Assembly: GCA_963751345.1 (NCBI GenBank)
Contig: CAVVUS010000030.1
Coordinates: forward strand, 224,001-288,000
Origin: an uncultured Chloroflexia bacterium
GTDB taxonomy: Bacteria > Chloroflexota > Anaerolineae > B4-G1 > SLSP01
Direction: 5' to 3'
Length of the DNA: 64,000 nt
Every line of letters starts with the position of its first letter. The first letter of the stretch is position 1. Below are positions 9,990-37,095 of this stretch, one piece after another. The notes beneath the pieces were generated by a model. It did not search any database and was not told the DNA's origin. It worked only from the letters and a program-made list of their open reading frames with translations. The translations under genes and the position numbers were made by a program.

Positions 9990-10062
9990 TGGGCCCACCA
10001 GGATTCGAACCTGGAACCGACCGGTTATGAGCCGGCTGCTCTAACCGTTGAGCTATGAGCCC
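9990..10062 (-). tRNA. tRNA-Ile2 (CAT, lysidine type; elongator Met not excluded)
   Basis: GGGCTCATAGCTCAACGGTTAGAGCAGCCGGCTCATAACCGGTCGGTTCCAGGTTCGAATCCTGGTGGGCCCA; CCA not encoded. Confidence 0.9.
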
Positions 10063-10068
10063 CTGTAG

Positions 10069-10139
10069 AGCGGGCGACGGGAATCGAACCCGTATCTTTA
10101 GCTTGGAAGGCTAAGGCTCTACCATTAAGCAACACCCGC
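10069..10139 (-). tRNA. tRNA-Gly (TCC)
   Basis: GCGGGTGTTGCTTAATGGTAGAGCCTTAGCCTTCCAAGCTAAAGATACGGGTTCGATTCCCGTCGCCCGCT. Confidence 0.93.
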
Positions 10140-12199: not shown

Positions 12200-12474
12200 C
12201 AGAAGACTTTCAACTCACGTGTCCCTCGACCATCGGCGCCCCGACCGCAGTCCCACCGTTGCCGGCGACCCCTGACAGGAGTCTAGCACGATGTGACCCT
12301 TGCCGCCAGAGGAGGCTGATGGCAGTAAGGCGAGGAGCGGCGCGAACGTCATCTGTGACGAGATGGCGTCCGCGAGAGCCTGGGCGTCTTCCGCAAGCGC
12401 GTCCCCGGCATCTGTCCCAGGCGCGCGATGCGGACAACTCACGCACACCCGGTCGGAAATCCGACGCTGCAGCC

Positions 12475-12518
12475 TTGATTGGCCGCGTTTTCGGCCTGTA
12501 TAATAGAACAAAAGATCT
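12475..12518 (+). promoter_or_regulatory. Sigma70 promoter with LexA-like operator (copy A)
   Basis: TTGATT-N18-TATAAT followed by GAAC-AAAA-GATC. Confidence 0.7.
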
Positions 12519-12673
12519 AATAACCACCCAGGAGGCCTTCTATGGCCGGTATCAAACACGTGACCGAAAAACAGCCCGCCACCCACGTCCGCTCCCGCGG
12601 CCGGCAAGACGCGCTTCCCATAGCCCTCCATTCTTCATTCTTCCATTCTATCATTCTTATCTTCTCCCCCTCC

Positions 12674-12855
12674 ATTACGAAACGAACCCATTTTCGGGCA
12701 CCCCTGAAAATGGCCGATGGCACCTATATGTACGGCCTTTCTCCTACCCCTCCAGTACGAAACGAACCCATTTTCGGGCACCCCTGAAAATGGCCGATGA
12801 CGCCGAGACGCATGACCTTTCCCTTGCCGCCTATTTTGCGAAACGAACCCATTTT
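12674..12855 (+). repeat. 3 x ~21-nt direct-repeat array (copy A)
   Basis: CGAAACGAACCCATTTTC core in repeats starting at 12674, 12754 and 12835; periods 80 and 81. Confidence 0.92.
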
Positions 12856-12947
12856 CAGGGGCGTGGACTTACACCCAGAATGAAGCACCCTCCCTGGGGA
12901 TGCACGTCACCTTGATTGATCGACCGCCGGGGCTATACTTGGTGGCT

Positions 12948-14269
12948 ATGGATTTGTTTGAATTCAGTCGGCAGGACCAGATTCAGCGAGAGGCACCGCT
13001 GGCTGCCCGGATGCGGCCACGCACACTCGACGAGTTCGTGGGGCAGGAGCAGATCATCGGGCCGGGGAAGCTGCTGCGCCGCGCGATCGAGGCCGACCGG
13101 CTCTTCACGTCGATCCTCTTCTGGGGCCCGCCGGGCGTCGGCAAGACGACGCTGGCGGCCGTCATCGCCAACACCACCCAGTCGCACTTCGAGACGCTCA
13201 ACGCCGTGCTCGCCGGCATCGCCGACCTGCGCAAGCTGGTGGATGCCGCCAGCGAGCGCCGCGCGATGTACGGCACCCGCACGCTGCTGATGGTCGACGA
13301 GATCCACCGGTGGAACAAGGCCCAGCAGGATGGCCTGCTGCCGGTGGTGGAGGACGGTACCATCACCCTGATCGGCGCAACGACGGAGAACCCCTACTTC
13401 TCCATCATCTCCCCGCTGCTCAGCCGCTCGCGCATCTTTCGCTTCATCGCCCTTACGGTCGAGGAGATCGAGGACCTGGTATTGCGGGCGCTGAAGGACA
13501 AGGAGCGTGGGTATGGCAGGCGCGAGATCGTCCTGGATGACGACGCGCTCCGACACCTGGCGGCTTTCGCCGACGGCGATGTGCGCAGCGCGCTCAACGC
13601 GCTGGAGCTGGCGGTGGAATCCACAACTCGCGAGATGAGCAGGGCGTCATCCACATCACGCTGGACGTGGCCGAGGAGTCGATCCAGCGGCGGGCGATGC
13701 AATACGACAGGGCCGGCGACGAACACTACAACACCGCCAGCGCCTTCATCAAGTCGATCCGCGGCTCCGATCCGGATGCTGCCCTCTACTACCTGGCCAA
13801 GATGGTCCTGGCGGGCGAGGATCCCCGCTTCATCTTCCGGCGGCTGCTCATCTCCTCAGCCGAGGACATCGGCCTGGCCTCGCCGATGGCGATCTCGGTC
13901 GTGATGGCGTGTGCGCAGGCGTTTGAGTGGGTCGGCATGCCTGAGGGGCAATACCACCTGGCCGAGGCCACGCTCTATCTTGCCACGGCCCCCAAATCGA
14001 ACAGTGCAGGTGCCTACTTCAAGGCACGAGCGTACCTCGAGGAGCACGGCTACCTCCCCCCGCCGATCTATATCCGCGACGAGCACACGTTGCTGCGTGA
14101 GGAACAGGGAAAGGCCCCCGGCTACAAGTATCCCCACGATTACCCCGGCGGATGGGTCAGCCAGCGGTATCTTCCCGAGGGTGTGGAAGGGGGATGGTAT
14201 CAACCCAAGGACATCGGCTACGAGGAACGCATCGCGGAGTTCATACGGAAACTCCGGGAGAAGCAGTAA
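12948..14269 (+). CDS. rarA: Replication-associated recombination protein A (MgsA), frameshift near 13630
   Basis: APLAARMRP...GQEQI, GPPGVGKTT, DEIHRWNKAQQD, SAFIKSIRGSDPDAALYY, YKYPHDYP. Confidence 0.95.
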
Positions 14270-36315: not shown

Positions 36316-36534
36316 GTGGAGATCGTGGAATTCCCGGAAGGGCCGTACGCGGTGAAGACGGTGCATCTGCGCGATCCGGGGAGCGACATCGGCAGTACCT
36401 GGCAGGAGCTCGTCGTCTGGCGCGAGCAAAGCGCCTACAAGGCCGCCGACCATCAGTGGCTGGAGCATCACTTCCACGTTGGTGTGCCGGGGCACGACTT
36501 CGACCTGGATCTCTATCTGCCCATCGCGAAGTAG
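36316..36534 (+). pseudogene. C-terminal fragment of a GyrI-like effector domain
   Basis: EIVEFPEGPYAV...IGSTWQELVVW...HQWLE...DLYLPI; no N-terminal part or RBS. Confidence 0.6.
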
Positions 36535-36638
36535 GCGATGCGACGCGCGGCCCTTCGCAGGAAAGAAGATGAATGAGAGAATGGGAATACACCCCGACCG
36601 GCGTCGGGGGAAACCTTGCGAAGGGTCGCGTTGGCCAG

Positions 36639-36801
36639 AAAATGGGTTCGTTTCGTAATAAGGCGGGGGCTGGGGAGCAGGATTTGGGGAGAAGAAGACG
36701 AGTCATGGCCAAAATGGGTTCGTTTGGTAATAGGCAGGGACTAGGGAGTAGGAATTGAGGAGAGAGGACCAGCCATTGCCAAAATGGGTTCGTTTCGTAA
36801 T
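36639..36801 (-). repeat. 3 x 21-nt direct-repeat array (copy B)
   Basis: ATTAC(G/C)AAACGAACCCATTTT at 36781-36801, 36711-36731 and 36639-36659; periods 70 and 72. Confidence 0.92.
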
Positions 36802-36921
36802 GAGGGGGGCCGGGTGTAGGACTGGGGAGAAGGGGACGCAACGTGGTAGTGCGGCGAGGCGGGACTGCGGGCTGCGTCTCGGTAGGGCGTTGGACGCGGT
36901 CATCGGGTAGGTCTCCTGGAT

Positions 36922-36972
36922 TGTATAATAGATCTTTTGTTCTATTATACAGGCGAACTCGACCCCAATCAA
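36922..36972 (-). promoter_or_regulatory. Sigma70 promoter with palindromic LexA-like operator (copy B)
   Basis: TTGATT-N17-TATAAT; TGTATAATAGA-ACAAAAGA-TCTATTATACA. Confidence 0.72.
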
Positions 36973-37095
36973 GGCTCCAGGTCGGCCAACTTGCTGTCGA
37001 GCGCGCGAAGACCAGGGGGATGATCGCCCGGTAGCGATGGTGCCCATCGAGCTGATCGAAGAGGTGCTTGCCGAGCGCGAGGCATGCGTGAGGCA

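What the first reader, a model, noticed from the sequence alone, without database searches (positions are those of the whole stretch)
12460..12860. Multicopy promoter + operator + mini repeat-array element: candidate SOS-inducible RNA-array system (copy A)
Seen: the same architecture occurs here (+) and at 36630-36987 (-), 24 kb away in an unrelated context. The shared leader is CCGAC.CTG.AGCCTTGATTGG..CCTGTATAATAGAACAAAAGATCTA..CCAGGAG.CCT..ATG. It is followed by 100-130 nt and then exactly three ~21-nt repeats (ATTACGAAACGAACCCATTTT) at a 70-81 nt period, separated by variable C/T-rich spacers. Successive repeats fall in different reading frames (KRTH, RNEP, ETNP) and the ORFs diverge, so conservation appears to act on nucleotides rather than protein. 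No cas, transposase or RT gene is adjacent. Inference: either an orphan leader+array transcript processed into small guide-like RNAs by a factor encoded elsewhere, or a non-autonomous element with iteron-like sites.
Basis: partly seen in the sequence, partly recalled or inferred. Interest (0 to 1): 0.85.

Follow-up and report, generated by a model that had tools for sequence, protein, structure and literature searches.

The report
SOS-promoter mini-elements from an unknown gene
The two loci are short, gene-less copies of a DNA-damage-controlled, single-gene element of unknown function, keeping only its promoter and a 21-base end motif that accompanies this gene family in two bacterial phyla.

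Summary
Both loci share a sigma-70-type promoter, an overlapping LexA-type box, SD+ATG and three copies of (A)TTRCGAAACGAACCCATTTT (6 exact or 1-mismatch hits in the window; 0.06 expected).

It is not CRISPR-like. The "spacers" are diverged tandem duplicates: 86% identical 80-nt units in copy A, 79.5% over 132 nt in copy B.

The loci belong to a family: about 12 leader+core loci in this genome. The core occurs in 13 of 21 other genomes of the genus and in 0 of 19 outside it.

The leader and the core are the 5' and 3' ends of one 263-aa gene that has the same LexA-type promoter. That gene is intact in G002, G013 and G011 and frameshifted here. The protein matches no Pfam, NCBIfam, PHROG or PDB entry and is modelled as all-helical. 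It gives 53 matches in one Bryobacterales chromosome.

The same nucleotide motif sits at the 3' end of Acidobacterial homologues, read in different frames.

Best reading: these are internally deleted, non-autonomous derivatives of an uncharacterised SOS-controlled selfish gene unit, and the core is that unit's cis-acting site. How the unit moves and what the motif does remain inferred. No RNA data exist.

The parts
12461..12541 (+). Copy A leader: -35 TTGATT (12475-12480), -10 TATAAT (12499-12504), LexA-type box TAGAACAAAAGATCTA (12504-12519), SD AGGAGG (12530-12535)
   Evidence: BLAST block shared with copy B and with other leaders: A positions 138-215 of the query that starts at 12324.
12542..12625 (+). 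Copy A remnant of the family gene's 5' coding end (MAGIKHVTEKQPA... versus MTGPKRVTEKQLA... in the full-length gene), followed by unrelated sequence
   Evidence: 68.6% identity over 118 nt to the full-length unit at G000:C30:392620-392510.
12626..12673 (+). C/T-rich tract with an 8-nt periodic sub-repeat (TCATTCTT-like)
   Evidence: D3. The array region has C/G ratio 2.04 and 61% pyrimidine.
12674..12694 (+). Core 1 of copy A, ATTACGAAACGAACCCATTTT
12754..12774 (+). Core 2 of copy A, AGTACGAAACGAACCCATTTT. It belongs to an 80-nt unit that is 86% identical to the preceding unit.
   Evidence: D1
12835..12855 (+). Core 3 of copy A, TTTGCGAAACGAACCCATTTT
   Evidence: D2
36901..36985 (-). Copy B leader: -35 starts at 36972, -10 ends at 36944, box 36944-36929 inside a perfect 11+8+11 palindrome, SD, ATG at 36903-36901
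   Evidence: I3
36777..36801 (-). Core 1 of copy B (17-mer at 36797-36781)
36707..36731 (-). Core 2 of copy B, the CCAAAC variant (17-mer at 36727-36711)
36635..36659 (-). Core 3 of copy B (17-mer at 36655-36639)

Best explanation
Both loci are miniature, internally deleted derivatives of a roughly 1-kb single-gene unit.

The full unit has three parts:
- a strong sigma-70-type promoter whose -10/+1 is overlapped by a LexA-type operator;
- a 263-aa all-helical protein of unknown family;
- a C/T-rich tail ending in the 21-nt core (A)TTRCSAAACGAACCCATTTT.

The minis keep the 5' end (promoter, operator, SD, ATG and about 10 codons) and the 3' end (tail plus core). They have lost the gene body. The 3' unit was then duplicated in tandem to two or three copies.

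Inferred working: LexA represses the promoter, and DNA damage releases it. A C-rich, weakly structured RNA is then transcribed across the core or cores, and in some places into the downstream gene.

The core is a nucleotide-level cis element that accompanies this gene family in Chloroflexota and Acidobacteriota. I read it as the site on DNA or RNA that the family's own protein recognises. It would be needed in cis for whatever spreads or maintains the unit, which would explain why gene-less copies retain it.

Shown: the anatomy, the family, the derivation from the full-length unit, the cross-phylum motif, and presence/absence between species.

Inferred: LexA control, transcription, protein-motif recognition, and mobility.
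For: 1. Family. There are 11 box+core loci by pattern in G000, including the full-length unit, plus C13:140045 found by BLAST. The core occurs in 13 of 21 other same-genus genomes and in 0 of 19 genomes of other genera.

2. Derivation.
- The full-length gene carries the same promoter/box type and has a core 24 nt (G002) or 18 nt (G014) after its stop; in G011 the core lies inside the ORF's end.
- G011's only core match (up to 1 mismatch) is that one.
- The copy A leader plus its first codons align to the full-length unit (68.6% over 118 nt).
- All 4 Anaerolineae-type full-length loci with enough upstream sequence have TATAAT followed directly by an AGAAC/TAGAAC-N4-NNTC-type box.

3. Motif variant agrees within genomes. 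G013 has the gene and 10 of 10 listed cores with AAACAAACCC. G000, G002 and G014 have the gene and most cores with AAACGAACCC.

4. Cross-phylum motif.
- AA[AC]CGAACC occurs 31 times forward and 4 times reverse in 80 homologue loci. The forward hits lie in 20 of the 80 loci.
- In the Acidobacterial loci they cluster +545 to +620 nt from the start codon.
- The motif is read as PNEPI and as ETNP within the same ORF.
- Third-codon-position majority fraction is 0.94 in the motif against 0.62 upstream. This used 13 rows, of which 2 are the same loci fetched twice, so 11 are distinct.

5. The same gene-less pattern occurs in Acidobacteria. L192, L193 and L195 have 2-3 motifs behind a shared leader and no family gene.

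6. Copy number and unit edges. The family profile gives 53, 10 and 6 matches in three Acidobacterial genomes. Paralogues share 92-97% identity over 0.78-0.95 kb with sharp edges and no recurrent neighbour gene.

7. Presence/absence.
- The copy A site has no box in 0 of 17 orthologous rarA upstream regions.
- The full-length unit is a roughly 0.95-kb indel between the same two genes in G011 versus G018, with the core at its right edge.
- Two units lie at G000/G002 synteny breaks.

8. Constraint. In 5 G000/G002 orthologous pairs, promoter+box is 236/255 identical (93%) and core 120/147 (82%, which counts one deleted unit). Interior is 423/582 (73%) and flanks 742/1023 (73%).

9. Not coding. Copy B and its G002 orthologue differ by a 1-nt indel after about 13 codons.
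Against: - No terminal inverted repeats and no target-site duplication were seen.
- No clean empty site was found for any mini. Copy A replaces an unrelated 217 nt in G002. Two other G002/G000 comparisons also show replaced sequence, not clean insertion.
- The protein has no transposase, recombinase or nuclease fold. The best matches are generic coiled coils (Foldseek E at best 0.086; VIA Z at most 7.9, within the noise stated for helical models).
- In G041 many paralogue pairs are homologous exactly from start to stop codon. Gene conversion among old paralogues would also give this.
- The 53-match genome G041 has no AAACGAACCCAT at all, so the motif is not needed by every subfamily.
- One solo core has decayed in G000 relative to G002 (case 4).
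- G003, G004, G005 and G020 carry cores but gave no hit with the full-length protein. They are MAGs, so this is not absence.
- LexA binding and transcription are untested.
- The G000 frameshifts may be assembly errors.
Confidence: 0.55

Rival explanations
1. A family of trans-acting, SOS-induced small RNA genes. The conserved core is a seed, or a protein-sponge motif (1-3 per RNA). The 263-aa gene merely carries such an sRNA in its 3' UTR, and the gene-less loci are stand-alone sRNA genes duplicated from promoter to 3' end.
For: - The units run from a promoter to just past the core, with no TIR or TSD.
- The core is always on the sense strand downstream of the promoter (11 of 11 loci).
- The core is mostly unpaired in the predicted folds.
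- Promoter and core are more conserved than the interior.
- The array RNA would be C-rich and G-poor (C/G 2.0-3.2).
Against: - No complementary target was found outside the elements. All 29 genome hits with up to 2 mismatches are the elements themselves.
- There is no enrichment of hairpins after the last core. Mean MFE is -20.5 against -21.5 kcal/mol for 400 random 70-mers, one-sided Mann-Whitney p 0.79.
- No intrinsic terminator was detected in the sense direction.
- There is no Rfam match.
- It does not explain 53 matches of the protein gene in one genome.
- It does not explain why the motif lies inside coding sequence in Acidobacteria.
Confidence: 0.17
2. An addiction or decoy system. The helical protein is a toxin or nuclease, and the core-bearing RNA neutralises it or is its substrate, working like a type III toxin-antitoxin pair. 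The gene-less loci are orphan antitoxin/decoy genes that protect the host.
For: - Repeat RNA sits next to a protein gene, the gene is solitary, and it is multi-copy and patchy in distribution.
- Several genomes have many minis but gave no hit with the full-length protein.
- The invariant H41 lies in the conserved stretch SRxNALKHG. From memory this loosely recalls the Rx4-6H motif of HEPN RNases. It is a lead only.
Against: - There is no similarity to any PADLOC-independent family tested (Pfam, NCBIfam, PHROGs, PDB).
- No HEPN or ToxN fold appears among the fold-search rows.
- The repeats lie downstream of the gene, not upstream.
- Spacing is irregular.
- R35 is not among the columns conserved at 90% or more.
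Confidence: 0.1
3. Decaying pseudogene remnants without present function. The similarity of leader and core reflects recent common origin or gene conversion, and the arrays are slippage products.
For: - The interior decays quickly and ORFs are disrupted.
- One solo core has degenerated.
- The elements sit in fast-changing intergenic DNA and at rearrangement points.
Against: - The core is identical across species whose flanks are 73% identical.
- It is kept in a second phylum at synonymous sites.
- The promoter and box are 93% conserved.
- Copy number is far above that of the source gene.
Confidence: 0.12
4. An orphan CRISPR-like leader+array whose transcript is cut into guide RNAs.
For: A leader with a promoter is followed by direct repeats at 70-81 nt.
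Against: - The conserved repeat is only 17-21 nt.
- The spacers are diverged copies of each other.
- 12 of 18 clusters hold one core.
- Periods range from 38 to 203 nt in the genus.
- No cas gene is adjacent.
- The repeats are explained as the 3' end of a gene.
Confidence: 0.02
5. The cores encode a repeated peptide tail of small SOS-induced proteins.
For: There is an SD and ATG after the box, and the forward frames of the core lack stops.
Against: - The cores fall in different frames within and between copies.
- An orthologous ORF is frameshifted.
- The ORFs share nothing beyond about 11 codons.
Confidence: 0.02

Closest known systems
MITE-type non-autonomous derivatives of insertion sequences
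   Same: Short, multi-copy, gene-less copies keep both ends of a longer coding unit. Copy number exceeds that of the full-length partner. Presence differs between related species. They are associated with rearrangement points.
   Different: There are no terminal inverted repeats, no target-site duplication and no recognisable transposase. The left end is a complete regulated promoter. The right end is a tandemly duplicable 21-nt motif.
BOX elements of Streptococcus pneumoniae (boxA-boxB(n)-boxC; recalled, not tested here)
   Same: Dispersed intergenic modular elements with a variable number of a tandem internal or terminal subunit.
   Different: BOX elements are not known (from memory) to derive from a coding unit or to carry a LexA-type operator. 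The sequences and host phylum are unrelated.
Type III toxin-antitoxin loci such as ToxIN (recalled)
   Same: A promoter-driven array of short direct repeats is linked to one protein gene, and the RNA repeats are the protein's partner.
   Different: Here the repeats follow the gene and their spacing is irregular. The protein is an all-helical model with no ToxN-like match. Many loci lack the gene.
LexA-controlled small genes of the SOS regulon (tisB/istR-1, symE/symR, dinQ; recalled)
   Same: A short transcript starts at a promoter overlapped by a LexA-type box.
   Different: There is no conserved peptide, the loci are multi-copy, and the conserved part is a 3' nucleotide motif.
CRISPR arrays
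   Same: A leader with a promoter, followed by direct repeats.
   Different: See the membership test: short repeat, related spacers, irregular period, no cas gene.

Membership tests
CRISPR array | Repeats of about 23-50 nt at a regular period, separated by unrelated unique spacers | tested here: not met
   The conserved repeat is 17-21 nt. Spacers are 79.5-86% identical to each other. Periods range from 38 to 203 nt across the genus. 12 of 18 clusters hold a single core.
CRISPR array | cas genes nearby, or elsewhere with a matching repeat type | tested here: inconclusive
   No cas-like gene was found among the neighbours scanned with Pfam or in the ORF lists. The whole genome was not scanned for cas families.
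MITE / non-autonomous IS derivative | Terminal inverted repeats | tested here: not met
   No inverted pair brackets either copy. None was seen at the edges of the Acidobacterial units.
MITE / non-autonomous IS derivative | Target-site duplication | tested here: not met
   The flanks of near-identical paralogues show no duplicated bases. No clean empty site was available for the minis.
MITE / non-autonomous IS derivative | Shares both ends with a longer coding partner and outnumbers it | tested here: met
   Leader and core equal the 5' and 3' ends of the 263-aa gene unit. There are about 12 leader+core loci against one full-length (frameshifted) copy in G000.
MITE / non-autonomous IS derivative | The partner encodes a transposase | tested here: inconclusive
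   There is no Pfam, NCBIfam, PHROG or PDB sequence match. Fold searches gave only generic helical matches. This does not exclude a new enzyme.
LexA (SOS) regulon member | Operator matching the organism's LexA box | tested here: met
   The element box is TAGAACAAAAGATCTA. The lexA upstream box is TAGAACAAATGTGCGA and the recA upstream box is TAGAACGTTTGTACTA. Palindromes AGAAC-N4-GTTCT occur at several intergenic sites. The consensus is inferred, not measured.
LexA (SOS) regulon member | The operator overlaps the promoter so that binding blocks RNA polymerase | tested here: met
   The box starts at the last base of the -10 hexamer in both copies.
LexA (SOS) regulon member | LexA binding and damage induction | not testable with these tools
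   No RNA run was listed.
Type III toxin-antitoxin (ToxIN-like) | An endoribonuclease toxin of ToxN/AbiQ type preceded by a regular repeat array | tested here: not met
   The repeats follow the gene. The model is all-helical. No such Pfam family matched.
Integron attC site | An imperfect palindrome of 57-141 bp with RYYYAAC ... GTTRRRY ends (recalled definition) | tested here: not met
   By reading, the core and its flanks hold no such paired sites. Inverted repeats around the cores are copy-specific.
Any Rfam RNA family | A covariance-model match | tested here: not met
   There were 0 matches at E up to 1 in 12400-12950 and in 36500-37050. Only two tRNAs reached the gathering score in the window.

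The most novel reading that the evidence does not exclude
This is a new class of damage-triggered selfish element: a solitary gene of about 1 kb whose all-helical protein, with no DDE, HUH, serine- or tyrosine-recombinase fold, recognises a 20-nt terminal motif on DNA or on its own RNA. That recognition spreads or maintains the unit, and gene-less minis parasitise it. The element is shared by Chloroflexota, Acidobacteriota and probably other soil phyla, and it reaches tens of copies per genome.
Probability: 0.22. Interest if true: 0.85.

Novelty: new variant of a known kind. Interest (0 to 1): 0.6.

Why it matters
If this reading holds, a large protein family that is unnamed in the sources searched gets a first handle. 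The family gave 781 hits at E up to 0.001, and every hit that carries a source name is called 'hypothetical protein'. It has up to 53 matches in one genome.

The handle has three parts: a damage-controlled promoter, a defined 20-nt partner motif that can be synthesised and tested for binding, and natural gene-less derivatives.

The work would also add dispersed SOS-controlled promoters to the regulon of Anaerolineae-type Chloroflexota. Some of these point into neighbouring genes such as rarA. It would also explain recurrent assembly breaks and rearrangement points in these genomes.

Tried and rejected
- RNA evidence. One search for sequencing runs listed no RNA holder and only small DNA shares. 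Read laying was not used. This says nothing about expression.
- Rfam. No match.
- RNA structure. The copy A and copy B transcripts fold no better than shuffles by much (z -1.96 and -0.80). A CGAAA...TTTCG stem around the core shows no compensatory change, judged by reading the copies. Hairpins after the last core are not enriched. There is no sense-strand intrinsic terminator.
- tmRNA mimicry. The tmRNA tag region is unrelated.
- Viral origin. The 19-nt motif hit 8 viral contigs, and none has a family gene beside it by tblastn or by a family HMM.
- Protein annotation. Pfam, NCBIfam, PHROGs, a PDB profile search, Foldseek against PDB, VIA wide and the ESM Atlas all gave nothing informative.
- Known LexA motifs upstream of the Acidobacterial homologues. 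Not enriched: 2 of 72 against 7 of 72 in the control region for GAAC-N4-GTTC, 5 against 10 for GTTC-N7-GTTC, and 1 against 0 for CTGT-N8-ACAG.
- Clean empty/filled sites for minis. Not found. One comparison is spoiled by a 53-nt poly(A) run in G000.
- Reverse-strand mini-ORFs starting MGSFR. I considered and dropped them. They have no shared sequence beyond six residues and no promoter was seen.
- Literature. Four full-text searches (listings and abstract starts only, no paper read) showed nothing on such elements. This is not proof that nothing is in print. Supplements were not consulted.
Full report
**1. Observation**

Reading both loci confirms the shared architecture.

Copy A (+ strand):
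- TTGATT at 12475-12480, then 18 nt, then TATAAT at 12499-12504.
- TAGAACAAAAGATCTA at 12504-12519.
- AGGAGG at 12530-12535 and ATG at 12542.
- Three cores at 12678, 12758 and 12839.

Copy B (- strand):
- The -35 hexamer starts at 36972 and the -10 hexamer ends at 36944.
- The box is at 36944-36929 and the ATG at 36903.
- The cores are at 36797-36781, 36727-36711 and 36655-36639.

The 17-mer core gives 7 hits with up to 3 mismatches against 0.06 expected, and the 25-nt leader gives 2 hits against 0.00 expected. Neighbouring genes are ordinary: a histidine kinase, a LuxR-type regulator, rarA/mgsA, an alpha-amylase-family protein and a glycosyltransferase.

**2. The arrays are tandem duplications, not repeat-spacer arrays**

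Copy A holds two 80-nt units that are 86% identical (D1). Copy B units are 79.5% identical over 132 nt. In G002 a three-core array likewise consists of near-identical 82-83-nt units (L030).

In the window's genome, 29 cores (up to 2 mismatches) form 18 clusters: 12 singles, 1 double and 5 triples. Across the genus, periods run from 38 to 203 nt.

**3. A genus-wide family**

The window is G000:C30:224001-288000. A pattern search finds 11 loci in G000 with a -10/box followed by cores within 1 kb. BLAST adds C13:140045.

The core (up to 1 mismatch) occurs in 13 of 21 other genomes of the genus. It was not found in 19 genomes of other genera of the family and order. Record titles of close relatives name Anaerolineae/Chloroflexia MAGs. 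G004 and G013 use the variant CGAAACAAACCC throughout the listed hits.

**4. Source of the two conserved blocks**

One G000 locus (C30:392587, - strand) has the same promoter with box TAGAATAAACGTTCTA. It is followed by an ORF beginning MTGPKRVTEKQLAANRANARKSTGPRTPEGKA. A core lies after the end of the reading frame.

Intact 263-aa versions exist in G002 and G013. G011 has a 277-aa form.
- The core follows the stop codon by 24 nt in G002 and 18 nt in G014.
- In G011 the core lies inside the ORF's end.
- In G011 that is the only core found in the genome.

Copy A's leader and first codons (MAGIKHVTEKQPA) align with this unit at 68.6% over 118 nt. All four Anaerolineae-type full-length loci with enough upstream sequence carry TATAAT followed directly by an AGAAC/TAGAAC-N4-NNTC-type box.

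So the minis are the unit's 5' and 3' ends without its body. The G000 full-length copy differs from G002 by three 1-nt insertions. rarA next to copy A has a 2-nt insertion. These may be real decay or assembly errors.

**5. The operator**

The lexA gene of this genome has TAGAACAAATGTGCGA between its -35 and -10. recA has TAGAACGTTTGTACTA. Perfect AGAAC-N4-GTTCT palindromes lie at several intergenic sites.

The element box differs from that palindrome at one position and overlaps -10/+1. LexA control is therefore a reasonable inference, but it is not shown. In copy B the box is part of a perfect 11+8+11 palindrome, so another repressor cannot be excluded.

**6. The protein family**

The 263-aa protein has no Pfam, NCBIfam or PHROG family and no PDB sequence relative. 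The AlphaFold model is confident and all-helical (pLDDT 83.8). It matches only generic coiled coils:
- Foldseek E was at best 0.086.
- VIA Z was at most 7.9, which the tool states is within noise for helical models.

A database search found 781 relatives at E up to 0.001. Every hit that has a source name is called 'hypothetical', and many lie on contigs of 1-3 kb. The Atlas neighbours are unnamed clusters.

The profile finds 53 matches in one complete 8.8-Mb Bryobacterales chromosome, and 10 and 6 matches in two other Acidobacterial genomes. Paralogues there share 92-97% nucleotide identity over 0.78-0.95 kb with sharp edges. The edges run from 0-200 nt upstream of the start codon to the stop codon or the last motif. 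No neighbour gene recurs.

**7. The motif crosses phyla as nucleotides**

In 80 homologue loci, AA[AC]CGAACC occurs 31 times on the gene's strand and 4 times on the other. The forward hits lie in 20 of the 80 loci. In Bryobacterales/Solibacter loci they lie +545 to +620 nt from the start.

There the sequence is (A)TTACCAAACGAACCCATTT. This is the same 19-21 nt as in this window. It is read as L-P-N-E-P-I, and further copies in the same ORF are read as E-T-N-P.

In 13 aligned rows (11 distinct loci), third codon positions have a majority fraction of 0.94 inside the motif and 0.62 in the 60 nt upstream.

Two Acidobacterial genomes also hold gene-less loci with 2-3 motifs behind a shared leader (L192, L193, L195). 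Their inter-motif spacer resembles the corresponding stretch of the full-length gene. The same full-length/mini relation therefore appears in a second phylum.

**8. Turnover**

- The copy A site upstream of rarA lacks the box in 0 of 17 orthologous regions that have at least 436 nt of upstream sequence. One of them (G021) has a core-like hit.
- Against G002, 574 nt of G000 (window 12324-12897) stand in place of an unrelated 217 nt.
- Copy B is orthologous in G002 but has two cores there.
- Two other units are orthologous in G002.
- Two units lie where G000/G002 synteny breaks.
- At the maf-upstream locus G000 and G002 carry different leader types.
- The full-length unit is a roughly 0.95-kb indel between a glycosyltransferase gene and a sugar-transferase gene in G011 versus G018. 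The core lies within about 20 nt of its right edge.

In 5 orthologous pairs, identity by block is:

| Block | Identical / total | Identity |
|---|---|---|
| Promoter+box | 236/255 | 93% |
| Cores (counts one deleted unit) | 120/147 | 82% |
| Interior | 423/582 | 73% |
| Flanks | 742/1023 | 73% |

**9. What it is not**

- There is no Rfam match.
- No strong fold was found.
- Hairpins are not enriched after the last core.
- There are no terminal inverted repeats and no target duplication.
- There is no link to phage contigs.
- The ORFs after the leader are not conserved, and the copy B ORF is frameshifted in its orthologue.

**10. Reading**

The best-supported account is that these are non-autonomous derivatives of an uncharacterised, LexA-box-controlled single-gene unit, and that the core is the unit's cis element.

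Whether the unit transposes, is copied by recombination or gene conversion, or persists by addiction is open. The exact start-to-stop homology of many paralogues, and the lack of the motif in the 53-match genome, count against a simple transposon picture. Whether the core acts as DNA or as RNA is also open.

Four literature searches (listings only) showed no description of such elements.

Noticed in passing
window 13625-13626 (rarA/mgsA, 12948-14269 +): G000 has a 2-nt insertion relative to the G002 orthologue, which splits rarA into two ORFs. This may be a pseudogene or an assembly indel.
   Followed up: partly
G000:C24:32259-32330: A 53-nt poly(A) run lies exactly where G002 (L211) carries a leader plus a three-core element. 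It looks like an assembly artefact at a repeat.
   Followed up: no
G000:C11:489746 and C12:77392; G002 C6:114956, C7:1924, C22:120280: This is a second leader type: a LexA-type box plus an ORF starting MTTQPGxVFLxSDxLHDEWTKLPHALIDRLPLI. It is fused after about 37 codons to core arrays and to GGCGACTTCATCGCC hairpin repeats. No clear full-length gene was found in the genus.
   Followed up: partly
L135 2384-3299 (Bryobacterales MAG): A 72-nt C/T-rich tandem repeat of 12.7 copies (97% matches) lies directly after a family gene. L133 and L129 have related arrays of 174 and 163 nt.
   Followed up: no
L192, L193, L195 (Acidobacterial genomes G043 and G042): Gene-less loci with 2-3 motif copies about 55 nt apart lie behind a shared GTGCTATAnnTGGG leader.
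   Followed up: partly
window 36922-36951: The copy B operator lies in a perfect 11+8+11 palindrome, TGTATAATAGA-N8-TCTATTATACA. G002's L030 shows the same.
   Followed up: no
window 9990-10139 (-): Two adjacent tRNA genes.
   Followed up: no
G000:C10:123949-124022: Two LexA-type boxes lie in a divergent promoter region: TAGAACATATGATCTA and AGAACATGTGTTCT. The genes were not identified.
   Followed up: no
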